NCBI GenBank assembly: GCA_016192915.1
Contig: JACPTF010000002.1
Span: 131,530-195,529 of the forward strand
Origin: Candidatus Woesearchaeota archaeon
Lineage (GTDB): Archaea > Nanobdellota > Nanobdellia > Woesearchaeales > UBA10216
Direction of reading: 5' to 3'
Length of the DNA stretch: 64,000 nucleotides
Shown here: piece by piece, positions 1,021 to 63,590 of the stretch
Layout of the letters: each line of letters starts with the position of its first letter
Numbering within the stretch: position 1 is the stretch's first letter
Program-made: the position numbers and the translations under genes
Notes under the pieces: model-generated
What the model was told of the DNA's origin: nothing
The model's database searches: none
What the model saw: the letters and a program-made list of their open reading frames with translations, nothing else

Positions 1021-1068
1021 TTATAGCAAATCACTTAAGTTTTCGTATCTTTTCAAGTGAGTTGCTAT

Positions 1069-1112
1069 TAGGCAATAACAGATGGATATGCGGTTATTAA
1101 TGTTATTGCCTA
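1069..1112. terminator. bidirectional hairpin between convergent genes (12-bp perfect inverted repeat TAGGCAATAACA / TGTTATTGCCTA, 20-nt loop)
   Basis: The inverted repeat is visible in the sequence, and it sits between the + strand DUF424 stop and the - strand PolD stop. Confidence 0.4.
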
Positions 1113-1124
1113 TAAGTTGTGATA

Positions 1125-4100
1125 CTACCCAAACCACTTCCCAAGCCCTTCCTGCTTCTCCTTATCCCTTCCAAATACAGACTCAACCCTCTTTTTTGTA
1201 AGGTCCAGAACCTGCAAGAGGTAGGGTGAAACAGCGTACTTGCCGGCAAGGCTGATTGCAGGCTCAAGGTACTTTATGATAGAGCCTTCGGAGATGGTAA
1301 AAAGGATTTTGCCGCTGCATTGGTCACAGACTCCGGCAAGGGGGGGCCTCCTGAATTTTGTGTTGCATTTGATGCACCTGAATTGTTGGGTTGAGAATTT
1401 CCTAAGGTTGCCGCGGACGTCCTTAAGGAGATGCTTTTCTATAACCAGCCTGGCAACGTCCTGCGCGTCAACGGCCCGTATTTTTTCGGCAAGAGCCATC
1501 TGGCCCTTAAGCTTCTCCTCCATTGAAGGGATGGTTTTGTAGGCAGAACATGTAACCCCTATATTGATGCTGGAAAGAGTATGCGTAAAGCCAACCCCTT
1601 CATATTGCTTAGGCGTGTTAAGGCGGGAACCAAGCAGCTCAATCTTAACATCCTGGGGCTGCTTCCACTGCATCGCTGCCTCGTACAGCTCAAGAGGGTA
1701 GTGCCATGCGACATCAAACCTGTGGGCCATGTCATCGACTTCGGCAGGAATAAGCCTTGAAGTCAGGACAAGAGGGCTATCCATTGTCTTTGCACCTCTC
1801 GAATCAGGGAGGAACTGCCTCGAGAAGTTAATAAGCGCGTCAAGCAGAAGGATGACACACGCCTCATCACCATCAGCGTCCCTTCTCATTGCAGCGTGGA
1901 AAAGAGGATGGGCGAAGAAAGCCTGGGTGCTCGAAAAACCCACTATCCTGCCAACAATTCCCGCAGATATGTGCGGGGCAAGCCCTATGACGAGATGCCC
2001 GACAAGGTCCTCTTTTGAATCAAGCCTGTAAAACGGCTCTTCCTTGTAAAATTTCATGAGAAGCTCATCAACAAACTGGGAAATCCTGAAGAGAACGGCA
2101 TCAGAGCTTTCGTCAGTTGAATCGGGGCTGGAAGGAAGAATAACATCCTGGGGCTTCAGCTCGAGCACCTGATGCTCTCCTGTGAGGGGAGTGCCATGAA
2201 TGTCCATTCTGTAGCCAAGGGCTAAAAGCTTCTGGACAGGTGTTCTGACTTCGGCTGGCGTAAAATGAGTCAGGGGAAGCTCGCTCATATCATAACGGAC
2301 AGTGCCGTCTTTGTTAACACACAGCTCGTGCTTGGCCCGGAGCACCCCCTTTGCAAGGTTTTCGGGGGTGTGATTCTTGTTTGAAGTGCCCCTGACTCCC
2401 TTAATTAGGTCAGAATGGGTTGTTTCTGCAAGTGTTTTAAGGGCCACATCTAAAAAATGCTTTATTTGCAGAGGCCTTGTTGAGTAAGTTTTGTTGGCGT
2501 GCGGGCACTTTTCAATAACGCCACACTTCTCGCAGAAAAGCATCCTTTTTGTTTTATTGCCGCAGTTCTCACAAACAGGATATATTGTCTGGGAATTGCA
2601 GCTTGGGCAGGCAGCAATCGGGAAATCAGCTGTCACCTTCCCTGCAGCAATAGCTTCCTGAAAAGAGCGAAGGCGGCCGCCTTCATCACCAACAGGGAAA
2701 AGAACGTGGGGGCTTCCCGTAAGCTTTCGCATCTTTGCCTTCTCAGGCCTGCCCATCCTTGCACCGATAAAAGTGCCTCCCTTGTCCCTCACCTGAAAAA
2801 CAGAAAGCTTTCTTACAAGGTCCAAACCGGTTTGCGGTTGCTGCAAATCGGCAGTAGCCGATTCAGCATCGGCAGCAGCCGATGCGTATCGACCCGAGGT
2901 CGATAGCACATTCCGCATTGCGGAATTGTGCTGTAGCTGCGATGGCTGAACTGCCGAAATTGAAGCACTAATGATGCTTGCCTTCCCCGAAATGACATCA
3001 GAAAACGAGGCTGATGTTTCAGTTGAAAAGAGGAGGGTTCTAACATCAATTCCCAACTGGAGCAGGAGCATTATGACGTCGTTGTGGGCTACAACAACAA
3101 ACTCATTATTAACAAAAAGGTGGGGGAGGCCTAAAAGTTCGAGGGCCCTCTTGCCTGTTTTATCCTGTGAGGAAGACCCGGCAGAAACTACGAGTTTAAC
3201 CTTCCCCACCTCAAAAATAAGCCGTGCCTTTGCAAGAAGGTTAAGCATGGCAACAAACTGCCCGCTATCCAGTGCTGACCAAAAATAAGTGTAAAATGGG
3301 TGGATTGGAACGGCGAGGGCTTCACAAAAGCGAATCGCGGCTTCGGCAGAAGGCTTTTCAAAAGGCGGGGAAAGCAACGCCTGAACTTCGTGCTCTGGCA
3401 GCAAAAGCGCGCTTGCGGCATAGGCAAACGTAAAAGCCCCAAACTTATCGAGCACTGACTTTTTGGCTTCTTCAGCGAACCATTCTTCACAGTACCCCGG
3501 GGGCACAAGCATATGGGCTCGGTCAAAGAAATCACCGTACGAGATAAGAAGGTCGCCCAGGTAAAGAATCTCAGAGACAAATGGTGCTTGCGCTCGGGCA
3601 GTGCTTTCAGAGTCAAACCTGGCAACAGAGCCATCCATCAAGCGAACAATAGGGCCATCTATCGAATCGCAAGGGGTTATTGCCGCGGCTTTGCCGGGGC
3701 GTTCAACCTTAAGCTGGGTTCCTGTGGCAACAAACCTGTCGAGTACAATCATGGTTGCAGGGCTAATGCCTGCAGCAGAATAGCCGCTTGCGCGAGTCTT
3801 GCCGTACCTCAGCCTAAAACCGCCGTGCCTGAGAGGGTGCGTTATGACAGGCCTGCCTGCAACAAGGTCTGAAATAAAAGTGTAATCGGGAGCGAGTTTC
3901 TTGGAATCATCGCTTTTCTCCTTGCTCATGCTTTTCTTTTTCTTTTGCAAGGCAATAAACTTCTCAAGAAAGGACCAGTCAATGTCAAAACCGCCTTTTA
4001 ACTGGATGCGCTTCAGCTCCTTCCAAAGTTTGGGTGCCTTAAAGGCAAGCATTGAAACAACAAGGCACACCCCTCCCCTAATCCTGTTGGTGCTTACTCT

Positions 4101-11740: not shown

Positions 11741-12340
11741 ATGGAAGCCGTTAATTTGCCTGACGTGAAAGAGAAGGAACCATCAAAGGAAGACCATTTG
11801 AAAAAGTCAAAGGAACATGTAAAAGCATTTCTCCTGAGGGAAAGAGTAGTTACTGAGAACACAGACGCTGCAAGGGAGCTCTACAACCAGAGCAGATACG
11901 GAAAACTGCTTCCTGACGGAAGGGTTCAGCTTGCCCTGACAGAAGCCATGTACCTGCTTGAAAGAGGCAAAATAGCCGTTGCCGCTTCTCGAGGGAAACA
12001 AGAAGTAAGCCCAGAGCAATTCATGAAAAAAGCATCAAAAACCCAGCAGAACTTCTGGGTAAAATACTCTGTGTTCAAGGACATAAGGGATAGGGGCTAC
12101 ATAATCAAAACCGCCCTGAAGTTCGGGGCCGACTTTAGGATTTATGACCGCGGCGTCAAACCAGGCGAGGATCACGCTCGCTGGATACTATACCCTGTGC
12201 ATGAGGGGGATACGCTCACGTGGCATGAGTTCTCTGCCAAGAACAGGGTTGCGCACAGCACCAAGAAAAGGCTTCTCATCGGAGTAGTTGACGAGGAAGC
12301 TGACGTGAGCTACTGGGAGGTCCGATGGATGAGGCCGTAA
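11741..12340 (+). CDS. endA: tRNA-splicing endonuclease (EndA)
   Basis: Has the N-terminal domain and the C-terminal catalytic domain with ...YSVFKDIRDRGYIIKTALKFGADFRIY... Confidence 0.8.
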   Translation: MEAVNLPDVKEKEPSKEDHLKKSKEHVKAFLLRERVVTENTDAARELYNQSRYGKLLPDGRVQLALTEAMYLLERGKIAVAASRGKQEVSPEQFMKKASKTQQNFWVKYSVFKDIRDRGYIIKTALKFGADFRIYDRGVKPGEDHARWILYPVHEGDTLTWHEFSAKNRVAHSTKKRLLIGVVDEEADVSYWEVRWMRP

Positions 12341-15480: not shown

Positions 15481-15514
15481 ATGACCTTCTTAAGAAGAAG
15501 GTCAATCAAGAAAC
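15481..15514 (+). repeat. palindrome-plus-tail motif, copy M1 (TGACCTTCTT aag AAGAAGGTCA ATCAAGAAACT)
   Basis: 10-bp perfect arms. The same motif recurs at 20556, 23039 and 48612. Confidence 0.7.
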
Positions 15515-17479: not shown

Positions 17480-17504
17480 CTTTTTACATTATTTTCGTTT
17501 CCCA

Positions 17505-17627
17505 CGTCGCCATGCTGCGACGGGGCCCAATCGTGCTTTGCACGATTTGGGTTTGATGAACCCCAAGTCGCCTGTTGGCGACTGGGCCCAGTCGAGTTTT
17601 TCTCGACTTGGGCTTTTTCGGAAAAAG
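17505..17627. repeat. multi-hairpin repeat element, copy A (five tandem hairpins bracketed by GGG/CCC)
   Basis: CGTCGC/GCGACG, CCCAATCGTGC/GCACGATTTGGG, CCAAGTCGCC/GGCGACTGG, CCCAGTCGAG/CTCGACTTGGG and CTTTTTC/GAAAAAG. Three of these stems carry a single bulged A. Confidence 0.7.
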
Positions 17628-20555: not shown

Positions 20556-20592
20556 TGACCTTCTTTGAAAAAGAAGGTCAATCAAGAAATCA
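20556..20592 (+). repeat. palindrome-plus-tail motif, copy M2 (TGACCTTCTT tgaaa AAGAAGGTCA ATCAAGAAATCA)
   Basis: Located immediately 3' of the tyrS stop. Confidence 0.7.
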
Positions 20593-34363: not shown

Positions 34364-35605
34364 TCAGCCGCACTCCTCAGCTTTCCTGCAGTCAAGCTTG
34401 AGCTTGAGCTCAACTATGTTGAGGGTAGTTTCAGGAACCAGCCTGATGTAGTTTGTCCCGGCAACCAGGAAGGAATCAATGTTCTTGGAGTAATTCGCGG
34501 ATTTGGTGTCAATTCTTGTTTTCTGGTTGTTAATCTCAAGATTCGCGACCTTCCTCTCCTTGTCATCAACAAACATTATGGCAAGCGTTGAGTTCACCGT
34601 GTTATTCTCAATCCTCCTGAAAGTGGAGCTGTTTATGCTGAAGAAGTACAGCGGGAAGATTGGCTCCTTCAGCTTGGTCCTCAGGAGCAGCCTGTCAAGC
34701 AGGTAAGTTCCCTTCTCGGCAACAAACCTGAACTCGTTCTTCCCGGGAACAATGTCTTTTGGGTCAATCTGCAGCTTCTCCGGGCTGCCGCAGTCAGGCA
34801 CCTTGGAAGCCAAAAGCTTGCCGTTAACATAAGCCAAGAACTTGCCTACATCCTTCACGTTGCAGTCAACAAAGTAGCTCAGGCTTGCTTCAGACAGCAA
34901 GTCTGCCTCCTCCTGCCCTATTATCACTGCCTGGACAGCTTCCTTGTTGTCAATCAGTTCAACAGTGCCGGTTATCTTGGCATCCCTCAAGTCATAGAAA
35001 TTCTTTGAAAAAGGCTTGTACCACGGCACAGGGTCTGTGGAAAACTCGAACAGGTTTTCCTCTCTGAGATTAATGCTTAACGGCTCGGTAAAGCTGTCAA
35101 CCTCCCCCTCGAAAATCTCGTTATCATTTTGGGTTATTATAAGGTTTCCGCTATGGCTGGCCACACTGAAGCTGAGCTTTGCATTCTCAACCTTGTCCTT
35201 GACAGTCAAAATAACAGACCTTCTCTTATCAGAACTCCTTGCAGCTTCAACGTAAATAGAGTCAACGCTTTTCAAAACCGTATCCTCCTTCTTCGTAAAA
35301 AGGTTGAACGAAGGGAGCTTATGGTCAAATTCTGTTTCCTTAACCTTGGTAAGGGTGCCCGGCGATTCATCAAGCAAAACAGAGCCTCGAACAGCAGCAA
35401 GCACAGAAGACCCGCTGCCGGATGTGTCCTGTTCAAGAATTCTGTCTCGCTCGCTCTTGGGCAGGAACAGGATGTAAAGCAGGATAAAAGCACCAATCAC
35501 GAATACAAGAACAGCAGCATTGCCTCCTGATGGCTGCCCCTTTTTACTAAAATGCCTCATGCACTCTTCCTCAGTAGTTAGATATATAAATGTTTTTCCA
35601 TGCAC
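34364..35605 (-). CDS. membrane-anchored hypothetical protein
   Basis: An N-terminal TM helix (AAVLVFVIGAFILLYILFL) followed by a large soluble domain. Confidence 0.45.
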   Translation of the reverse strand: MHGKTFIYLTTEEECMRHFSKKGQPSGGNAAVLVFVIGAFILLYILFLPKSERDRILEQDTSGSGSSVLAAVRGSVLLDESPGTLTKVKETEFDHKLPSFNLFTKKEDTVLKSVDSIYVEAARSSDKRRSVILTVKDKVENAKLSFSVASHSGNLIITQNDNEIFEGEVDSFTEPLSINLREENLFEFSTDPVPWYKPFSKNFYDLRDAKITGTVELIDNKEAVQAVIIGQEEADLLSEASLSYFVDCNVKDVGKFLAYVNGKLLASKVPDCGSPEKLQIDPKDIVPGKNEFRFVAEKGTYLLDRLLLRTKLKEPIFPLYFFSINSSTFRRIENNTVNSTLAIMFVDDKERKVANLEINNQKTRIDTKSANYSKNIDSFLVAGTNYIRLVPETTLNIVELKLKLDCRKAEECG

Positions 35606-35613
35606 AACACGTA

Positions 35614-35806
35614 TTTGCCGGTTTTGGCAACCGCGTTGGCTGTTTTAGCTGCCATCGCAGCTATTGCAAATCGGGCATTGCCCGATTGCACACAGCATCG
35701 GCAAAGCCGATGCGCATAGTCGAGCTGATAGCTCGACTAGCTCAAACTATGAGTTTGAGCATAGGCAGCGTAACTGCCTATGTTCCGCTCATCGCGGAAT
35801 TGTGCC
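35614..35806. repeat. multi-hairpin repeat element, copy B (about 8 tandem hairpins) forming the region directly upstream of pelota
   Basis: TTGCAAATCGGGCA/TGCCCGATTGCA (bulged A), GCATCGGC/GCCGATGC, TAGTCGAGCT/AGCTCGACTA, GCTCAAACT/AGTTTGAGC, CATAGGCAG/CTGCCTATG, TTCCGC/GCGGAA, then the TTGTGCC tail. The terminal modules match the PolD and SufS copies. Confidence 0.75.
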
Positions 35807-35823
35807 GAAACAGGATTGCCCAA

Positions 35824-36846
35824 ATGAAAATACTGAAAAAGGATTTGAAGCAGGGAAAGGTGGTTGTTCAGGCACAAAGCCTTGACGACCTCTGGTGCCT
35901 TAGCCAGGTTGTGCTTAAAGGGGACACCGTAAGTGGCAAAACAACGCGCAAGGTAAGGCTTGGCTCGGCAGAGGAAGCAGTGAAAAAGACCTACACGCTC
36001 TCCCTTGCCGTTGAGGATTCTGAATTCAGGGACCAGTGCCTGAGGATAAGGGGCGCAACAACAGAGCAGCACGAAGACATACCAAAGGGGGCGCACCACA
36101 CTATAACGGCAGAGCCTGGTGAAGTCCTGGCAATAATCAAGGCGCGCTGGCAGAAATACCAGCTGGACAGGCTCCAGCAGGCAACTCAGGAGCAGCTAAA
36201 AGCACTCATCGTTGTGTTCGACAGGGAAAACTGCCTCCTCGCACAGCTCAAAAGCAGGGGTTACGAAGTAGTGGCAGAGCTGAAAGGAAAAGTCAGGAAA
36301 AAGGACTATGCGGCCACAACAGTCACCAATTTTTACAAAGAAATCATCACCGCCATAAAGGAGTACGATGAGAGGAATAATCCTGACAAAATAATACTGG
36401 CAAGCCCGGCATTCTGGAAAGAAGAACTCGCCAACGAACTGAAGAATGACCCCCTCAGCAAAAAAGTTGCCATCGCAACTTGCAGCAGCGTAAGCGAAAA
36501 CGCCATTGACGAAGTGCTGAAAAGGCCCGAAATGGGCACCGTTTTGGCTAATGCGATGGCAGCCAAAGAGCTGAGGCTCATTGATGAGTTAATGGCCGGG
36601 ATTGCAAAGGATGGGAAGGTCGCCTACGGGAAAAAAGAAGTCGGAGAAGCAATAGACGCTGCCGCAGCTGAAAAACTGCTTGTGACAGACGTCAAGGTAT
36701 ACAACAACCCTGAAACAGAAGCGCTGATGAAAAAGGTTGAAGACAGCGGAGGGAAAGTGTTTATAATAAACTCAGAAAACCAGGCTGGGCAGAAGCTGGA
36801 CGCGCTTGGCGGAATGGCGGCGTTGCTGAGGTATAAGCTCTTCTAA
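35824..36846 (+). CDS. pelA: Pelota/Dom34 (aRF1-like ribosome rescue factor); true ATG at 35824
   Basis: MKILKKDLKQGKVVV... is a typical Pelota N-terminus. The 78 upstream codons of the ORF run through the hairpin element. Confidence 0.85.
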   Translation: MKILKKDLKQGKVVVQAQSLDDLWCLSQVVLKGDTVSGKTTRKVRLGSAEEAVKKTYTLSLAVEDSEFRDQCLRIRGATTEQHEDIPKGAHHTITAEPGEVLAIIKARWQKYQLDRLQQATQEQLKALIVVFDRENCLLAQLKSRGYEVVAELKGKVRKKDYAATTVTNFYKEIITAIKEYDERNNPDKIILASPAFWKEELANELKNDPLSKKVAIATCSSVSENAIDEVLKRPEMGTVLANAMAAKELRLIDELMAGIAKDGKVAYGKKEVGEAIDAAAAEKLLVTDVKVYNNPETEALMKKVEDSGGKVFIINSENQAGQKLDALGGMAALLRYKLF

Positions 36847-36938
36847 TTGCCTGCAACACTCAATAATGCTGACTAATGGGGTTATTTGCACAACCTTCCA
36901 CAAAATTTATATATAAGATATCATATCTAAGATATGAA

Positions 36939-37178
36939 ATGCCACTAGCACACGTAACCAGGACAGGCAATATCTCATTACCAAAAGAGTGGCGCGAGGC
37001 ACTCGGCATAGAACCCAATTCCAGCGTGGTTATTCATAGGTCTGAGCACAAGATAACCATTGAGCCACTAAGAAAAGAAAGGTTTCAGACTATCTTGAAA
37101 GGGCTTGATGAGGAAATATCAAGAAAGAAGATATCTTTCTCAAAGGAGGAAGCACTGAAAGATGACTTCTACGACTAA
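36939..37178 (+). CDS. vapB: AbrB/SpoVT-family antitoxin VapB (second module)
   Basis: MPLAHVTRTGNISLPKEWREALGI... Palindrome AGATATcATATCT sits just upstream as a likely operator. Confidence 0.6.
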   Translation: MPLAHVTRTGNISLPKEWREALGIEPNSSVVIHRSEHKITIEPLRKERFQTILKGLDEEISRKKISFSKEEALKDDFYD

Positions 37179-37536
37179 ATTCATTGATGCCAACATATTC
37201 ATACTAAGATGGAGCAACCCCAAAGTAAAGGAATTCATTGATTCACTAAACAGGGAAGAGCATTGCACATCTGTTTTGGTCTTAGCCGAGGTTTACCATA
37301 AGCTAAAGCAAAAAAAGGTGGAAAACGTCTTCAATTACATAAGGGGGATTCTGGGGACCATAAAAATCCACGACTTTACGCAGGATGAACTATTCGAGGC
37401 AATCAAGAGCCCTCTGGAAATAAATATAAACGACAAGATACACCTGGCAGTAATGAAAAACAATAGCATCAATACCGTCATTTCCTTTGACAAGGATTTT
37501 GACAAGGATAAAACAATCAAGAGAGAAGAGCTATAG
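37162..37536 (+). CDS. vapC: PIN-domain VapC toxin (second module)
   Basis: KFIDANIFI... N-terminal Asp. Overlaps its antitoxin by 17 bp. Confidence 0.65.
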   Translation: MTSTTKFIDANIFILRWSNPKVKEFIDSLNREEHCTSVLVLAEVYHKLKQKKVENVFNYIRGILGTIKIHDFTQDELFEAIKSPLEININDKIHLAVMKNNSINTVISFDKDFDKDKTIKREEL

Positions 37537-53042: not shown

Positions 53043-53065
53043 TTTTTATCGTTTTTTGGTTGAGC

Positions 53066-53129
53066 CGCAAGTCGCTAGCAACTGCGCACAGTCGAGCTAT
53101 GCTCGACTTGTGTTTTTGCTTGCAAAAAG
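53066..53129. repeat. multi-hairpin repeat element, copy C
   Basis: CGCA(A)GT/ACTGCG, CAGTCGAGC/GCTCGACTTG (bulged A) and TTTTTGC/GCAAAAA. Same module types as copy A. Confidence 0.6.
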
Positions 53130-53130
53130 G

Positions 53131-53270: not shown

Positions 53271-56200
53271 TTAAACTTCGCACTTGCTGAATCCGCAGTC
53301 CTCGTTGAGGCAGGAGTGGCAGCCGTTTTCTATCTTCAGTGTTTTCTTGCCGCATGATTGGCAGTTGCTGAGCTTCATGTCTGAAGCATAAATCTCCTTG
53401 CCGTTTCCATGCGCTTCGTGAGTTTCTTTTTTTTCAGCTGCAACAGCCACTGTTGCGAGAGGTTCGCTTACAAAATTATCCACGGCCTTTGTGAAGAGGT
53501 ACCTGTTGCCTTCCTTTTTCAGCAGGCCATTTCTCAAGGCGTGGTATGCGGTGGTGAGCCTGCCGTTTGGGAGCCCTATGACATCGTCTCCGTGAAGCAG
53601 CTTTTGCTCGCCGTCAATCTCGACATCGTGGATTTGCTCTTTGCTGTCTTGGAACTCAGACTCGTGGGTTTCTGTGCTTAGTATGGGGAATCTTGAGCCT
53701 TCCCTGTATATGGTTATGCCCTTGAGCCCGTGCTTCCAGGCATCAAGGTAAATGTTTGATATTGTTTCCGGGTCAATGTCCTCTGGCAGGTTGACTGTTG
53801 AGGAGATGCTGTGGTCTATGTATTTCTGCCATAGCCCCTGCACCACCACTCTTTTGCTCGGGTCTATGAAGTGCGCTGTCCTGAAGAAGTGCGCTGGCAA
53901 TATTCGCTTCAGCTCTTCAGCATCCTTGCATTTCTGGGCTTCTTCAGCCAGGTTGTGCTGCTGTATGTAGCCGTCAACTGTAGAGTGGAATATTTTGAAG
54001 AACATGTTGCTCCCCCCTGAGCTGAGGCCCTCTGACCTTCTGGTGTAGTAAAGGGCAAACACAGGCTCTATCCCCCCGCTTACTCCGATAAAGTTCCTGT
54101 CTCCAAGCCTGTAGCCAAGCACTATGTTTGATATTGTCCCTGTTGGGGCTATTGAGAGTATTGCGACGTTTCTGAGCCCTTTCTTCCTTATCGTTTCTTT
54201 CGTCTCATCAGTTAGTATTTCCTGGAAGAACCTTCCCCTGCTGTATGCCTCATACTCGAATATTGGCGATGGCGTTTTTTCCTCTGCCAGCTCAGCTGAT
54301 GCGTCGTATGCAGTGTTTGCGAAAAGCTTTGCGGCTTCTTCGAGTATCTTTATCCCTTTTTCGCTGTCATACCCTGTTCCGAGCTGGTTGAGCATGTCTG
54401 CTATGCCCATAACGCCAAGCCCGAGCCTTCTTGTTTCGTAAGCTGCCTTTCTTTGCTTTTCAAGCGGATTTAGAAGCTCGTTCCACGTTACAACATTGTC
54501 AAGGAACCTTACAGACAGTGCTGTTGTGTCCTTAATGCCTTCCCAGTCTATCCCTGCATTGTCCGTATATCCGTTCACAACAAACCTTGACAAGTTTACT
54601 GAAGCCAGGTTGCACGCCCCTCCGTCTTCAAGAGGAACCTCTCCGCAGTTGTGCACGACGATGCCGTTGGCTATGAAAGAGTGCGTTATTGGCTCTTGCA
54701 GGTCATAAACTTCTTTTAACCCATTAGCGTTTATGCTGCTAATGTTGTCATATGTGCTCCTGCCTTCTCTATTTGTTAAAATTTTGTTGCCGGCAGTAAG
54801 ATTCCTGGCTTCTGCCCAACCCCCGGTCGTCATTACCTTATGGTCTTTAGTGCATACCAGTTCAAAACCCTTCTGTGTTGTTATTTTCAGCGTGTCCTTC
54901 TCTCCTGTTTTAATTGCGGCAGCTATGGGAAGTAATATTTTGCCCTCTAGTACTAAGCCGTTGCCTGGCAGCATCCTGGCATCTACAGCCACATTTACCC
55001 CGCCATTGCCGTAGTTTTCAGCAATTTCCTTAATTGTCATGATTCCATTATCTGTTTCTATTTTGGTGTCGCCAGCAACGCAAGGGTTTGTGCTGGCTAT
55101 CGGCCTTCCGACGTAGTTGGATGGCGAATACTTTACCATGGTGCTCCAGAATATGAGCCCTGGCTCAGCTGTCTTGTAGTTTCCCTCTATGAATGCGTTC
55201 CATATTGTCCTTGCCTTTACCAGGCGCTTTATCTCGCCTGTTTCCCTTGCGTTATAGTAAAGCATGAAGTCCCCTGCGTGCTTTATGGCAAGGTCGAATT
55301 CTGAGCTCCTGTCATGTACTACGAAATCCCCAAACATGTCCCTTTTTGACACATCAGTGAGGTCTTTCTCTGTTATTGCCTCTGAGTTGTGCCCTGTAAG
55401 GAAGCTGTTAAGCTCTTCAAAGGTATCAAATGCCTTCATCAGCCTGTACTTTTCTATTGGCTTTGCAGGAATTCCATACGAATAGTGCACTGCCCCGCCC
55501 TGCATGATTCCGAGTCCTGATACGCTTTTGTCTTTCAGGTAGACGAGTACCTTTTCTGTGCCGTATTTGTTCTGCTCTTCTACTGCCTGCATGAACTCAT
55601 CAGTTACTTTCAGGCTGATATTGGCAAACCTGACCTGCGTGTTCTCCCTTACCTGCCGTTCTACGTCCCTTAGCTGCTGCTCGTTGAACTTGCCTGACCA
55701 TTTGCACTGCTCCACTATCTGGTTTGTTACCCAGTTCGGTACCTTCTTCACGTTGATGAAGTGCGGGCTGTCAGGGTGCTTTATGTCAATCGTCAGCATC
55801 AATGCCCCCCTTCTTCCTGACTGGCCAATCAGCCCTGTTGTTAATGAAAATAATTCCATGAATGAAACGCTTCCTGTTGACGTATCTGCAGCATTATGGA
55901 CTATCGAGCCCTTCGGCCTCAACCCAGAGATGTCCACCCCGATGCCCCCTCCATAGGAGTATGTCCTTGCGCATTCATACGCAGACTGGTATATGGCTTC
56001 TATATTATCCTCTGAAATCAGTGATACAAAGCAGTTTGCCAGTGTCTTCAGCCTGTAAAGGTCCCCCCCGCCTGCTATGACCCTGCCTCCCGGCACAAAA
56101 TAGCCCTCGTACAATGCCCTGTAGAATCTTGCAGCCCACTCCCTTTGCTTTTCTGGCGTTGGCTCAACAGCGGCCATGAAGGCAGCCAGCCTTGAGTAAA

Positions 56201-56804
56201 CGTCTTCCGGCCTTTTCTCTATCAGCTTGTTGTTGATGTCCTTAAGGTAGTATTTTTTCTGGAATATGCTGGTTGCCAGCTCGTTGCCGTTAAGGTAGTC
56301 TCCTGGGTGTAGGGGCAGTTCGCCTGTCTTTTGCAGTTCCTTAATGTAGAATAGAAGGTTCTTGTATGCCTCAATCCTGTCATATCCTATGATTGATGCG
56401 AGCTTGCTTTTGTGTGCGAACATGTCAAGCAGCGCTGTCTTTTCCCCATCAGTCCCTTTTGCTGCCTCTGTCGCAGCCTGCCTTAGCTCTGCCCTTTTAG
56501 CCCTGTAAAGTATGTATGCTTTTGCGGTTTTTGCGTGGCCTTCTTCTATGAGTACTTTTTCAACAGCATCCTGTATTTCTTCAACTGATGGCAGCTTTTC
56601 TATTTTTGCCACATAATCAACAACAAGCCTTGTGAGCCTTTCTGCCTCTTTCCTGTCGCTTCCTCCAACAGCCCTTGCGGCTTTCATTATGGCAGATGTT
56701 ATCTTTTCAGGGTCAAAATCAGCCACCCTTCCGTCCCTCTTTACAATCTTGGAAACTTTTGTAACTATTACAGTTTTCCCCGTTTCAGAAGCCTTTGGTG
56801 TCAT
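53271..56804 (-). CDS. nrdJ: ribonucleoside-diphosphate/triphosphate reductase, class II-like (ATP-cone, NPCGE active site, C-terminal Zn ribbon), interrupted by a mini-intein
   Basis: N-terminal ATP cone (VKRDGRVADFDPEKI) and active-site STNP|C...HN|CGEVPL split by an intein. C-terminal CxxC...CxxC. PduO and NrdR lie directly downstream. Confidence 0.85.
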   Translation of the reverse strand: MTPKASETGKTVIVTKVSKIVKRDGRVADFDPEKITSAIMKAARAVGGSDRKEAERLTRLVVDYVAKIEKLPSVEEIQDAVEKVLIEEGHAKTAKAYILYRAKRAELRQAATEAAKGTDGEKTALLDMFAHKSKLASIIGYDRIEAYKNLLFYIKELQKTGELPLHPGDYLNGNELATSIFQKKYYLKDINNKLIEKRPEDVYSRLAAFMAAVEPTPEKQREWAARFYRALYEGYFVPGGRVIAGGGDLYRLKTLANCFVSLISEDNIEAIYQSAYECARTYSYGGGIGVDISGLRPKGSIVHNAADTSTGSVSFMELFSLTTGLIGQSGRRGALMLTIDIKHPDSPHFINVKKVPNWVTNQIVEQCKWSGKFNEQQLRDVERQVRENTQVRFANISLKVTDEFMQAVEEQNKYGTEKVLVYLKDKSVSGLGIMQGGAVHYSYGIPAKPIEKYRLMKAFDTFEELNSFLTGHNSEAITEKDLTDVSKRDMFGDFVVHDRSSEFDLAIKHAGDFMLYYNARETGEIKRLVKARTIWNAFIEGNYKTAEPGLIFWSTMVKYSPSNYVGRPIASTNPCVAGDTKIETDNGIMTIKEIAENYGNGGVNVAVDARMLPGNGLVLEGKILLPIAAAIKTGEKDTLKITTQKGFELVCTKDHKVMTTGGWAEARNLTAGNKILTNREGRSTYDNISSINANGLKEVYDLQEPITHSFIANGIVVHNCGEVPLEDGGACNLASVNLSRFVVNGYTDNAGIDWEGIKDTTALSVRFLDNVVTWNELLNPLEKQRKAAYETRRLGLGVMGIADMLNQLGTGYDSEKGIKILEEAAKLFANTAYDASAELAEEKTPSPIFEYEAYSRGRFFQEILTDETKETIRKKGLRNVAILSIAPTGTISNIVLGYRLGDRNFIGVSGGIEPVFALYYTRRSEGLSSGGSNMFFKIFHSTVDGYIQQHNLAEEAQKCKDAEELKRILPAHFFRTAHFIDPSKRVVVQGLWQKYIDHSISSTVNLPEDIDPETISNIYLDAWKHGLKGITIYREGSRFPILSTETHESEFQDSKEQIHDVEIDGEQKLLHGDDVIGLPNGRLTTAYHALRNGLLKKEGNRYLFTKAVDNFVSEPLATVAVAAEKKETHEAHGNGKEIYASDMKLSNCQSCGKKTLKIENGCHSCLNEDCGFSKCEV
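54648..55082 (-). other. mini-intein (145 aa, no homing endonuclease domain) within RNR
   Basis: Starts CVAGDTKIE (block A), has TKDH (block B) and ends ...GIVVHN followed by Cys +1. The host motif NP-CGE is restored after splicing. Confidence 0.8.
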
Positions 56805-62303: not shown

Positions 62304-63590
62304 TCACGCTGTCCTTGCCGCCATTTTCTTCATTTTTGCAGCAGCTGTTTCCAGGGCCTCTGCTAGTTTTTCTATCTCTTCCTGGGTGTTGTACAGGTAG
62401 AAGCTTGCCCGCGCTGTGCCTGTTATGCCTAGGAGCTTTGCAAGTGGCATTGCGCAGTGGTGCCCGCCCCTTACAGCTATGCCTTCAGCATCAAGCATGG
62501 CCGAAACATCATGGGGGTGGATGCCGTTTATGTTGAATGAGACAAGCCCTCCTCTTCTCGCTGCTTCAGGCCCGTAGATTGTGAGTTCATCTATCTGCCT
62601 GAGCTTTTCCATCGCCATCTTGGTCAGCATTTTTTCATGCTCATGTATGTTTTCCACTCCAATCCCTTCCAGGTAGTCGACAGCAGCTGTCAGCCCAACT
62701 GCGCCTGCAACATTTGGTGTTCCTGCCTCAAACTTCCATGGCAGCTCGTTCCACTTTGCATCCTGGAAGCTTACCTCGCTTATCATGTCCCCTCCGTATA
62801 GGAGAGGCTCCATCTTTTCGAGCAACTCCTGTTTGCCGTAAAGGACTCCAATCCCTGTAGGGCCAAGCATCTTATGCGCGGAAAAAGCCATGAAGTCGCA
62901 GTCAAGTTTCTTTACGTCAACTGGCATGTGTGGCACAGACTGTGCTGCGTCCAGCACCGTTATTGCCCCTGCTTCTTTTGCTGCAGCTATTATTTCCTTC
63001 GCTGGATTTATCGTGCCCAGAACATTTGAAACGTGCGTGAACGCAACGATTTTCGTTTTTTTGCTCATCAGTTGCGGTAGTTGCAAATCGGACGATGTCC
63101 GATTGCACATTCCGCTTGTGGCGGAATTGTGCTGCAGCTTTAATTCGCCGTTGCCGTCTATTTCCAAAAACCTGAGTTTTGCTCCTGTCCTTTTGGCTGC
63201 CTGTTGCCACGGCACTATGTTGCTGTGGTGCTCCATCTGTGTTAATACTATCTCGTCCCCCTTCTTTAGTTGCTGTGACAGGGAATTTGCAGCCAAGTTG
63301 AGTGACTCTGTCGTGTTTTTGGTGAATATTACCTCTTCCATTCCAGTTGCCGCAATAAATTTGGCAACCTTTTCGTGGGCTTCATCGTATTCTACGGTGG
63401 CTTCCTGGCTTAGCTTATGCACTGCCCTATGCACATTGGAGTTGTAGTTCTCGTAGTAGTAGTTCATTGCCTGTATTACCTGAACCGGCTTTTGCGTTGT
63501 AGCAGCATTGTCTAAGTATACCAGTGGCTTTCCGTACACCTTCCTCTTCAGTATCGGGAAGTCCTCCCGTATCTTTTTGGCATTAATCAT
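62304..63590 (-). CDS. sufS: cysteine desulfurase SufS (class V aminotransferase), carrying a 54-nt in-frame repeat-element insertion
   Basis: [22 protein letters not shown] (PLP Lys) and GHHCA motifs. An extra 18 aa [18 protein letters not shown] sits between GELKL and [10 protein letters not shown]. Confidence 0.9.
   Translation of the reverse strand: [428 protein letters not shown]
63081..63134. repeat. hairpin repeat element, copy D, in-frame inside sufS
   Basis: TGCAAATCGGAC/GTCCGATTGCA (bulged A) plus ATTCCGC/GCGGAAT and a TGTGCTG tail. Same terminal modules as copies B and E. Confidence 0.75.

What the first reader, a model, noticed from the sequence alone, without database searches (positions are those of the whole stretch)
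35614..35806. About 190-nt array of eight consecutive hairpins lying directly upstream of the pelota start codon
This stretch contains TTGCC-ggttt-TGGCAA, TAGCTGC-catc-GCAGCTA, TGCAAATCGGGCA-t-TGCCCGATTGCA (bulged A), GCATCGGC-aaa-GCCGATGC, TAGTCGAGCT-gat-AGCTCGACTA, GCTCAAACT-atg-AGTTTGAGC, CATAGGCAG-cgtaa-CTGCCTATG and TTCCGC-tcat-GCGGAA, then TTGTGCC. It ends 18 nt before the pelota ATG at 35824. The only TATA-like sequence nearby (35581-35590) lies upstream of the array and likely serves the divergent gene. Pelota is therefore probably either transcribed with a long, highly structured leader or regulated through this element. The maximal ORF call (35590 start) wrongly reads through it. The array is the long form of the elements inserted in polD and sufS, with identical first and last modules and extra internal hairpins.
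Basis: seen in the sequence. Interest (0 to 1): 0.7.

Follow-up and report, generated by a model that had tools for sequence, protein, structure and literature searches.

The report
Hairpin mobile element inserted before pelota
The hairpin array in front of the pelota gene is a recently inserted copy of a small, modular, palindromic mobile DNA element that in these tiny archaeal (Woesearchaeota) genomes usually sits in frame inside essential genes. It is probably not an evolved regulator of pelota.

Summary
Window 35614-35806 folds into seven strong hairpins and one weak one (z = -8.9 on the + strand, -9.7 on the - strand).

The array is not one unit. Hairpins 1-2 belong to an older pelota leader that close relatives also have. 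Hairpins 3-8 (35668-35802, flanked by TGC at 35665-35667 and 35803-35805) are a clean 138-nt insertion. It is absent from three relatives whose pelota is 88-94% identical.

The insert is the longest copy seen of a multi-copy family in groundwater Woesearchaeota (DPANN). Each copy has a left hairpin H1 (AAATCGG..CCGATT), a spacer GCACA and a right hairpin H2 (TTCCGC..GCGGAATTG). Some copies carry extra hairpins in between.

- 27 of 31 copies have a length divisible by three.
- The backbone has no stop codon in any of the six frames.
- Copies lie in frame, in either orientation, inside PolD, SufS, aIF5B, Trm1, RtcA, Rrp4, L18, TFE and a helicase.
- Stems change only by strict Watson-Crick double changes, which points to DNA-level palindromes rather than an RNA motif.
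- One nested copy with spacer GCGCA is flanked by CGC instead of TGC, so the element may specify its own target triplet.

No transposase was found. Pelota is now probably transcribed with a leader of about 210 nt. This is inferred and not tested. The closest known analogues are Rickettsia palindromic elements and REP/BIME repeats. I rate it a new variant of a known kind.

The parts
35583..35590 (.). Palindromic TATA box (TATATAAA / TTTATATA), probably a bidirectional promoter for pelota (+) and the divergent 398-aa gene (-).
   Evidence: Conserved in L103-L107. In L107 it lies 23 nt from both ATGs, which predicts leaderless transcripts. The function is inferred from archaeal promoter geometry, not measured.
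34364..35560 (-). Divergent gene (398 aa, no Pfam family). The true start is the ATG at 35560, not the GTG at 35605.
   Evidence: The orthologue in L103 is 398 aa. Pfam gave no hit. Sequence read.
35614..35664 (+). Older part of the pelota leader. It is not part of the insert.
   Evidence: Present in L103, L104 and L105, which lack the insert. Hairpin 2 is perfect only in the window.
35665..35667 (+). Left TGC triplet. This is the target triplet, present once in the empty site.
   Evidence: The empty site in L104 reads GCTGT-TGC-CGAAAC. The two blastn pieces overlap by exactly these 3 nt.
35668..35802 (+). Inserted palindromic element proper (135 nt). Its parts in order: H1 35668-35687; spacer GCACA 35688-35692; M1 35695-35713; M2 35717-35739; M3 35740-35760; M4 35760-35782; H2 35783-35799; TTG 35800-35802.
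   Evidence: Absent from L103-L105. The ends match 30 other copies. All 50 stem base pairs are Watson-Crick.
35803..35805 (+). Right TGC triplet, a repeat of the target triplet that closes the insertion.
35806..35823 (+). Last 18 nt of the leader (CGAAACAGGATTGCCCAA), with a weak AGGA motif. It existed before the insertion.
   Evidence: L104 has the same sequence. The mean unpaired probability around the AUG is 0.35, against 0.51-0.57 in relatives.
35824..36846 (+). Pelota gene (340 aa).
   Evidence: 646 homologues at E <= 1e-30; the listed ones are mostly 339-354 aa and carry Pelota_N/eRF1_2/eRF1_3 domains.
2842..2931 (+). 87-nt copy (plus one TGC) inside PolD DP2 (gene on the - strand), with four hairpins. 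It is in frame and encodes HNSAMRNVLSTSGRYASAAADAESATADL.
   Evidence: It lies in a variable linker that homologues lack. The same long form sits at other loci: L064, L114 and L117.
63082..63132 (+). 48-nt copy (plus one TGC) inside SufS (gene on the - strand), with two hairpins. It is in frame and encodes HNSATSGMCNRTSSDL.
   Evidence: It corresponds to exactly a 16-residue gap against the solved SufS 5xt5. An identical copy sits at the same site in L093.

Best explanation
The array is two things side by side.

1. Positions 35614-35664 are part of a 72-77-nt pelota leader that close relatives already have.
2. Positions 35668-35805 are a 138-nt insertion of a small, non-autonomous, modular palindromic mobile DNA element, 135 nt plus a repeated TGC.

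The family lives in groundwater Woesearchaeota (DPANN archaea). Its minimal form is 45 or 48 nt, counting one TGC triplet. It consists of hairpin H1, a 5-nt spacer GCACA and an inverted hairpin H2. Long forms carry one to four extra hairpins between H1 and H2, and the pelota copy is the longest seen.

The hairpins are DNA-level palindromes:
- They fold equally well on both strands.
- They vary only by strict Watson-Crick double changes.

The family is adapted to gene-dense genomes. Lengths are multiples of three and the backbone has no stop codon in any of the six frames. Most copies are therefore carried as in-frame peptide insertions in housekeeping genes, and are probably translated.

Insertion is site-selective. 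The target consensus is roughly G-Y-TGC-C-G, and the triplet ends up on both sides of the element. The triplet is complementary to the central spacer. This suggests, by inference, a mechanism that reads folded single-stranded DNA, such as an HUH/Y1-type transposase or a site-specific recombinase, acting in trans.

At pelota the element landed downstream of a shared bidirectional TATA box. The pelota mRNA is therefore predicted to carry a leader of about 210 nt with very stable structure. That is a side effect of a recent insertion, not an evolved control element.

Shown: the insertion, the family, its coding compatibility and the target triplet.
Inferred: transcription of the leader, translation of the in-gene copies and the enzyme.
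For: **Empty versus filled site.**
- L104 reads ...GCCGCTGT-TGC-CGAAACAGG. The window reads ...GCAGCTAT-TGC-[135 nt]-TGC-CGAAACAGG.
- The blastn pieces 34482-35667 and 35803-37111 map to L104 1-1186 and 1184-2458, overlapping by 3 nt.
- L103 and L105 also lack the insert.

**Multi-copy family.**
- Three copies lie in the window.
- 17 loci from six Candidatus Woesearchaeota MAGs, plus three more archaeal contigs, came from the genome collection.
- 14 more loci came from metagenomes.
- All have different flanks and both orientations occur.
- The polD-type long form recurs at L064, L114 and L117.

**Compatibility with coding sequence.**
- 27 of 31 copies have a length divisible by three, reached by different combinations of H1 and H2 lengths.
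- On average 5.0 of 6 frames are open, against 2.8 in shuffles.
- Copies lie inside aIF5B, Trm1, a Hel308-like helicase, an RNase-H-like protein, Rrp4, RtcA, L18, TFE, PolD and SufS, in at least 4 of the 6 frames.
- SufS shows exactly a 16-residue gap against PDB 5xt5.
- The PolD insertion lies in a variable linker.

**DNA-level palindromes.**
- z = -8.9 and -9.65 on the two strands.
- 96% of cells are paired, three pairs show double changes, and no pair shows a one-sided (G-U) change.

**Nested copy.** Removing 48 nt from L119 restores the L048 element 51/51. That inner copy has spacer GCGCA and is flanked by CGC..CGC.

**Target preference beyond TGC**.

**Promoter and leader.** In L107 the TATA lies 23 nt from both ATGs. 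Predicted leaders are 0 nt (L107), 72-77 nt (L103-L105) and 210 nt with -110.7 kcal/mol in the window.

**No Rfam family**.
Against: - No transposase or recombinase was found in the window (L103 annotation) or next to 20 ORFs adjacent to elements. Mobility is inferred only from the distribution of copies and from two empty/filled comparisons.
- The internal modules M3 and M4 of the pelota copy occur nowhere else in about 0.5 Mb of related sequence held. This exact 138-nt form is single-copy so far, and part of it could have arisen on the spot.
- The link between spacer and triplet rests on one variant copy.
- Copies at orthologous sites are identical while their flanks have diverged. The sufS copy is 48/48 identical to L093 in a gene that is 77% identical. 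The TFE copy is 51/51 identical. Simple neutral decay of a selfish insert does not predict this. For sufS a 120-nt tract of 96-98% identity suggests recent recombination.
- Transcription of the leader and translation of the in-gene copies were not measured.
Confidence: 0.8

Rival explanations
1. The array is an evolved cis-regulatory RNA leader of pelota (a structured 5' UTR, protein-binding platform or sRNA source).
For: It lies between the only TATA box and the start codon, so it is probably transcribed. It is extremely stable. It lowers the predicted accessibility of the start region from 0.51-0.57 to 0.35.
Against: - It is absent from relatives with 88-94% identical pelota.
- The same element occurs in the opposite orientation relative to transcription inside polD and sufS, and inside many other ORFs.
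- None of the 50 stem base pairs is a G-U pair, and covariation shows no one-sided changes.
- Both strands fold equally well.
- No Rfam family matches.
Confidence: 0.07
2. The elements are intervening sequences removed after transcription, for example introns cut by the tRNA-splicing endonuclease. Host proteins would then not carry the extra peptide.
For: The window encodes a tRNA intron endonuclease (11741-12340). Elements sit in essential genes, where removal would be convenient.
Against: - Removal at the RNA level would put no constraint on length or stop codons. Yet 27 of 31 copies have a length divisible by three, and 5.0 of 6 frames are open against 2.8 expected.
- Every in-gene copy keeps the host frame.
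- The element occurs in both orientations, so one RNA motif cannot serve all copies.
- I saw no bulge-helix-bulge arrangement at the junctions. This was checked by reading the sequence only.
Confidence: 0.03
3. It is the same mobile element, but moved by a classical DDE transposase. The flanking TGC would then be an ordinary 3-bp target-site duplication, and its complementarity to the spacer a coincidence or a later palindrome correction.
For: A 3-nt direct repeat flanks both independently verified insertions, TGC at pelota and CGC in L119. A large census by others counts MITEs, defined by terminal inverted repeats and target duplications, at high density in a Woesearchaeal genome (PMC11602168).
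Against: - Terminal inverted repeats are poor (AAATCGG against CAATTCC). The conserved features are subterminal hairpins with a bulged base.
- 30 of 31 copies sit at TGC, with a wider preferred context.
- The one variant triplet goes with the matching spacer change.
- No DDE transposase was found.
Confidence: 0.25
4. The hairpins were generated on the spot by replication errors such as template switching or snap-back synthesis. They would not be a transposed unit.
For: Modules M3 and M4 are unique to this locus and abut each other without spacers. Template-switch repair is known to keep palindromes perfect; this is established knowledge and was not tested here.
Against: The insertion ends exactly with the family's H1 and H2 termini and is flanked by the family's TGC triplet. 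M1 and the M2-type stem (AGTCGAGC) recur elsewhere. Local processes may explain how internal modules are added, but not the element itself.
Confidence: 0.05

Closest known systems
Rickettsia palindromic elements (RPEs)
   Same: Both are small palindromic repeats. Both insert in frame into unrelated housekeeping genes of a reduced genome and add a peptide segment without destroying the gene. Neither has an associated transposase (PMC10969869, PMC3733652).
   Different: There is no sequence relationship. The host is an archaeon, not a bacterium. The minimal unit here is much shorter (45-48 nt against about 100-150 bp). The element is modular, with a variable number of hairpins. Its backbone is open in all six frames and it is used in at least four frames and both orientations.
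REP / BIME / REPIN repeats of bacteria, mobilised by RAYT (Y1 HUH) transposases
   Same: Both have hairpin units of 20-30 nt with a conserved base and a variable tip. Units are paired in inverted orientation, like a REPIN, and clustered into mosaic arrays, like a BIME. Occasional REPs lie inside genes, and clusters encoding 43-82 aa are reported (PMC3733652).
   Different: The units have no GTAG or CGTC tag; they carry A-[A/G/T]-T-C after a bulged A. No RAYT gene was found. The elements are mostly inside genes rather than between them. REP-like repeats reported in archaea come from intergenic screens of Euryarchaeota and Crenarchaeota, not DPANN (PMC12306157).
IS200/IS605-derived miniature elements (PATEs), and HUH transposition in general
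   Same: Both have subterminal hairpins instead of good terminal inverted repeats. Both insert next to a short specific sequence. A sequence inside the element is complementary to the cleavage or target site, and the variant spacer and triplet change together.
   Different: The two hairpins are in inverted rather than direct orientation. The element is 10-20 times shorter than known PATEs. No TnpA or TnpB was found. The guide-like pairing is plain Watson-Crick and rests on a single variant.
Integron attC sites
   Same: Both are imperfect palindromes with extrahelical bases. A conserved triplet ends up at both boundaries after recombination. This comparison comes from established knowledge and was not tested here.
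   Different: There is no cassette ORF and no integrase. The units are far shorter and sit inside genes. This is an analogy of mechanism only.

Membership tests
MITE (non-autonomous DDE transposon) | Small size and many copies at unrelated sites | tested here: met
   31 distinct copies of 45-138 nt with different flanks.
MITE (non-autonomous DDE transposon) | Target-site duplication | tested here: inconclusive
   A 3-nt repeat flanks both verified insertions (TGC; CGC). It is almost invariant and matches the spacer, so it may be specified by the element rather than being a true duplication.
MITE (non-autonomous DDE transposon) | Terminal inverted repeats shared with a partner insertion sequence | tested here: not met
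   The ends AAATCGG and CAATTCC match at only 3 of 7 positions. No partner IS or transposase was found in the window or next to 20 adjacent ORFs. Only about 0.5 Mb could be searched.
REP/BIME with RAYT | Imperfect palindromes of 20-40 nt, often paired in inverted orientation and clustered | tested here: met
   Units are about 20-30 nt. H1 and H2 are inverted relative to each other. Arrays hold 2-6 units.
REP/BIME with RAYT | Conserved GTAG or CGTC tetranucleotide at one end (PMC3733652) | tested here: not met
   H1 and H2 have neither tag. The conserved core is A-A-T-C or A-T-T-C after a bulged A.
REP/BIME with RAYT | A RAYT (Y1 transposase) gene flanked by the repeats | tested here: not met
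   Pfam scans of the window and of ORFs next to elements gave no Y1_Tnp hit. Whole genomes could not be scanned.
Rickettsia palindromic elements | In-frame insertion into unrelated protein-coding genes | tested here: met
   Ten kinds of host gene, with the host frame kept in every case.
Rickettsia palindromic elements | Sequence similarity to an RPE family, and a Rickettsiales host | not tested
   RPE sequences were not compared. The host is an archaeon, so this is a functional analogy, not membership.
IS200/IS605-type (HUH) miniature element | Subterminal hairpins and insertion next to a fixed short target | tested here: met
   Hairpins H1 and H2 lie 1-6 nt from the ends. 30 of 31 copies follow TGC.
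IS200/IS605-type (HUH) miniature element | Target recognised through a guide sequence inside the element | tested here: inconclusive
   Spacer GCACA goes with TGC and spacer GCGCA goes with CGC. Only one variant copy was found.
IS200/IS605-type (HUH) miniature element | A TnpA (Y1) enzyme that cleaves the folded single strand | not testable with these tools
   This needs a complete genome census and biochemistry.
Archaeal bulge-helix-bulge intron | A bulge-helix-bulge motif at both junctions, and no constraint on frame | tested here: not met
   Length divisible by three in 27 of 31 copies, and depletion of stop codons. I saw no such motif when reading the junctions.
Any curated RNA family (Rfam 15) | Match to a covariance model | tested here: not met
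   Only a tRNA reached the threshold in the window. Around the array the best E-values were 2.8 and 4.5.

The most novel reading that the evidence does not exclude
These hairpin elements may be a minimal, self-programmed transposon type specific to DPANN archaea. The 5-nt spacer between two inverted hairpins would act as a guide that pairs with, and so selects, the 3-nt target. The same triplet then closes the element. The element is built to live inside open reading frames, with a length divisible by three and no stop codon in any frame. Arrays such as the one at pelota would grow by insertion of units into earlier copies. The enzyme would be an unrecognised protein that reads folded single-stranded DNA, of HUH or recombinase type, or even a host structure-specific nuclease.
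Probability: 0.22. Interest if true: 0.8.

Novelty: new variant of a known kind. Interest (0 to 1): 0.55.

Why it matters
DPANN archaea have genomes of about 1 Mb with almost no intergenic space. A mobile element that survives there by being translatable in any frame shows how selfish DNA adapts to extreme gene density. It is an archaeal counterpart of the Rickettsia palindromic elements.

The practical consequences are immediate:
- These elements lengthen and mis-start gene calls. Here pelota is called at 418 aa instead of 340 aa.
- They add 15-46 residues to core proteins such as PolD, SufS, aIF5B and TFE.
- They can mislead alignments and phylogenies of DPANN marker genes.

If the spacer-triplet rule holds, the family would also offer a very small natural system of programmable DNA insertion. 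For pelota itself the finding is modest: a recent insertion that gives the gene a long structured leader.

Tried and rejected
- **Rfam.** Searches of the window, the array and the Bacteroidota loci matched nothing relevant.
- **Exact-protein look-ups.** Both pelota ORF versions were looked up and the source contig is not on record.
- **PolD DP2 segment search for an empty site.** It returned only fragments at 30-65% identity, so there is no orthologous empty site. The alignment still shows that the insertion lies in a variable linker.
- **Search for a transposase.** Pfam was run on 40 window ORFs, 9 host ORFs, the 398-aa gene divergent from pelota, and 20 ORFs next to elements. All hits were ordinary housekeeping, toxin-antitoxin or metabolic genes.
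- **Search for further copies of modules M2-M4.** None was found in any held locus.
- **Similarity of the target's left flank to the element's own right end.** It is significant only in a register chosen after the fact (3.12 against 2.10 +/- 0.26 matches). I treat it as a hint only.
- **The 12-mer hits at window 744 and 5083.** They have one mismatch each and are ordinary coding sequence, not elements.
- **Single hits of the search pattern in about 70 bacterial genomes.** These are chance matches in 596 Gb.
- **Replication origin, CRISPR array and terminator.** All rejected. The Cdc6 gene is 28 kb away, there are no spacer-repeat units, and no T-tracts follow the hairpins.

Full report
**1. 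The observation**

Window 35614-35806 does contain a run of hairpins. A scan for perfect Watson-Crick hairpins finds six adjacent ones at 35646-35782, with stems of 7-10 bp. The 6-bp TTCCGC-tcatc-GCGGAA follows at 35783-35799. A weak 5-bp hairpin lies at 35615-35630.

Folded as RNA, 35605-35823 reaches -108.4 kcal/mol, against -68.5 +/- 4.5 for dinucleotide shuffles (z = -8.9). The opposite strand does as well (-111.6 kcal/mol, z = -9.65). Rfam has no family for it.

**2. The organism and the gene**

The window carries ordinary archaeal core genes: PolD DP1/DP2, Cdc6, TFE, Hjc, EndA, FEN1, RFC, PAN, an RNR with an intein, and SUF. Its nearest relatives are Candidatus Woesearchaeota MAGs from groundwater.

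Pelota homologues are 339-344 aa and start at the equivalent of the ATG at 35824. The 418-aa ORF from 35590 is therefore an artefact. It exists only because the array has no stop codon in that frame.

**3. The array is an insertion**

I fetched the pelota loci of five relatives and read the region between pelota and the divergent gene.

- L107 (pelota 77% identical) has only 53 nt there. A palindromic TATA box (TTTATATA/TATATAAA) lies 23 nt from each start codon. This fits a shared bidirectional promoter with leaderless transcripts. That reading is inferred from archaeal promoter geometry.
- L103, L104 and L105 (pelota 94, 90 and 88% identical) have about 125-130 nt between the two genes.
- The window has the same sequence plus 138 extra nt. 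L104 reads GCCGCTGT-TGC-CGAAACAGG. The window reads GCAGCTAT-TGC-[135 nt]-TGC-CGAAACAGG.

The two blastn pieces overlap by exactly the three bases TGC. Hairpins 3-8 are therefore a discrete, recent insertion, and hairpins 1-2 are older leader.

**4. It belongs to a repeated family**

The same ends occur inside polD (2842-2931) and sufS (63082-63132) in the window.

A scan of the genome collection for the right-hand hairpin found 17 loci from six Woesearchaeota MAGs and three more archaeal contigs. The remaining hits were single chance matches in bacteria, apart from one unrelated Bacteroidota repeat. A metagenome scan added 14 loci.

The common plan is TGC | AAATCGG-(variable tip)-CCGATT | GCACA | TTCCGC-(loop)-GCGGAA-TTG | TGC.

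- Short forms add 45 or 48 nt.
- Long forms carry extra hairpins between H1 and H2: 72 nt (L032), 87-90 nt (polD, L064, L114, L117) and 138 nt (pelota).
- The polD-type long form has different flanks at each locus, so it moves as a unit.
- The pelota form shares M1, and the stem type of M2, with other arrays. Its M3 and M4 were found nowhere else.

**5. The family is built to sit in genes**

- Of 31 distinct copies, 27 have an insertion length divisible by three. Different combinations of H1 and H2 lengths reach 45 nt: 18+16 and 19+15.
- The four exceptions have lengths of 46, 46, 47 and 49 nt. Three of them belong to one intergenic composite subfamily, and the fourth (L096) has a degenerate H1.
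- On average 5.0 of 6 frames are free of stop codons, against 2.8 in shuffles. The stop codons that do occur lie in loops.
- Long ORFs read through the element in aIF5B, Trm1, a Hel308-like helicase, an RNase-H-like protein, Rrp4, RtcA, ribosomal protein L18, TFE, PolD DP2 and SufS. Both orientations and at least four frames are used.
- Against the solved Bacillus SufS the element is exactly a 16-residue gap.
- In PolD it lies in a variable linker just before the conserved RDKxGTFIGARMGRPEKAK block.

These constraints argue that the in-gene copies are translated rather than spliced out. No expression data were available.

**6. DNA palindromes, not an RNA motif**

In an alignment of 21 short copies, 96% of cells are paired. 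Three pairs show changes on both sides. No pair shows a one-sided, G-U type change. All 50 stem base pairs of the pelota insert are Watson-Crick, and both strands fold equally well. The element also occurs in either orientation relative to host transcription.

**7. The target and a possible guide**

The reconstructed target is not random. Positions -7 C, -5 G, -3 A, -2 G, TGC, +1 C, +2 G and +4 A all carry information against a background of all TGC sites. Several targets lie in loops or arms of other hairpins (L046, L102, L013, L019-type).

In L119 a 48-nt copy sits inside the loop of H1 of an older copy at the N-terminus of TFE. Removing it restores the L048 element 51/51. This inner copy is flanked by CGC..CGC, and its spacer is GCGCA instead of GCACA.

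In both variants the flanking triplet is complementary to the spacer. This could mean that the element specifies its target, as in IS200/IS605-type transposition. It could also be an ordinary 3-bp duplication plus one compensating change. One variant cannot decide between these.

No transposase or recombinase was found in the window, in the L103 annotation or beside 20 ORFs adjacent to elements.

**8. Consequence for pelota**

No TATA-like sequence lies between the insert and the ATG. Placing the start 23 nt downstream of the TATA box gives these predicted leaders:

| Locus | Predicted leader | Minimum free energy |
|---|---|---|
| L107 | 0 nt | - |
| L103-L105 | 72-77 nt | -15 to -29 kcal/mol |
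| window | 210 nt | -110.7 kcal/mol |

The start region is also somewhat less accessible in the window: mean unpaired probability 0.35, against 0.51-0.57. This is a prediction only. Because the insert is absent from close relatives, I read the effect as a by-product of insertion, not as an evolved control.

**9. What remains unexplained**

Copies at orthologous sites are identical although their flanks have diverged. The sufS copy is 48/48 identical to L093 in a gene that is 77% identical. The TFE copy is 51/51 identical between L048 and L119.

For sufS, a 120-nt tract of 96-98% identity around the element suggests a recent recombination event that carried it. For TFE I have no explanation.

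**10. Comparison with what is known**

The closest known systems are these:
- Rickettsia palindromic elements, which also insert in frame in housekeeping genes.
- REP/BIME/REPIN repeats, which are also hairpin units in inverted pairs and mosaic clusters and are occasionally found inside genes.
- Miniature derivatives of IS200/IS605.

These are described in PMC3733652 and PMC10969869.

The defining tags and enzymes of those families were not found here, so I propose an analogy of mechanism, not membership. A census by others noted that one Woesearchaeal genome has one of the highest MITE densities among archaea (PMC11602168). REP-like repeats have been screened in intergenic regions of some archaea (PMC12306157). 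In the held literature I found no description of in-frame hairpin elements in DPANN archaea.

**Verdict**

- The array is a recent copy of a modular palindromic mobile element, a new variant of a known kind.
- Interest is 0.55, mainly for the family's coding compatibility and the possible self-specified target.

Noticed in passing
window 17500-17625 and 53060-53130; also L015 7385-7429, L044 1579-1684, L048 374-445, L086 4984-5026: A second kind of hairpin array lies in intergenic regions. Its units have the form CCC-A-AGTCGAG..CTCGACT-GGG, GCGC-A-AGTCGGC..GCCGACT-GCGC and similar, and the arrays often end in ctttttc..gaaaaagg. The plan is the same as in the pelota element (outer 3-4 bp stem, bulged A, then A-R-T-C core), but the stems differ.
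   Followed up: partly
window 1021-1114; L046 5539-5632: A 94-nt AT-rich sequence forms two long hairpins between the DUF424 gene and the end of polD. A 97% identical copy sits in a different context in another Woesearchaeota MAG. It may be another mobile repeat or a conserved small RNA. Rfam has no match.
   Followed up: partly
window 15482-15504 and 20556-20580; L019 449-471, L044 2684-2708, L048 7906-7929, L103 16484-16506: The palindrome TGACCTTCTT-N3-AAGAAGGTCA, followed by ATCAA, recurs in intergenic regions of several genomes. It looks like a conserved protein-binding site or promoter-associated element.
   Followed up: no
window 53271-56804 (- strand): The ribonucleotide reductase large subunit carries an intein splicing domain.
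   Followed up: no
window 36876-37536: A MazE-like antitoxin and PIN toxin pair sits directly after pelota. The close relative L103 lacks it, and L106 has other PIN/RHH pairs at the same place. The site appears to be a hot spot for toxin-antitoxin cassettes.
   Followed up: partly
L004, L008, L014, L016, L038, L061 (Bacteroidota 'Lejia' MAGs): A repeated element in two Bacteroidota MAGs begins with almost the same hairpin (ATTCCGCTTTAGCGGAATTGTGC). It continues gtcacctgaggtgaaatcagacccgggatttatcccgggg. No Rfam family matches, and any relation to the archaeal element is unknown.
   Followed up: partly
window 63081-63200 against L093: A tract of about 120 nt around the sufS element is 96-98% identical between two species whose sufS genes are otherwise 77% identical. 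This suggests a recent recombination tract that carried the element.
   Followed up: partly
L119 (reverse strand) 884-968; L048, L017: The N-terminus of TFE carries the same element in three genomes. In L119 a second element is nested in its first hairpin. Both are read in frame and add 32 residues.
   Followed up: yes
L033, L064: Two short contigs binned as 'Methanosarcinales' carry the Woesearchaeota element. L064 is 96% identical to the polD copy, so these contigs are probably mis-binned.
   Followed up: no
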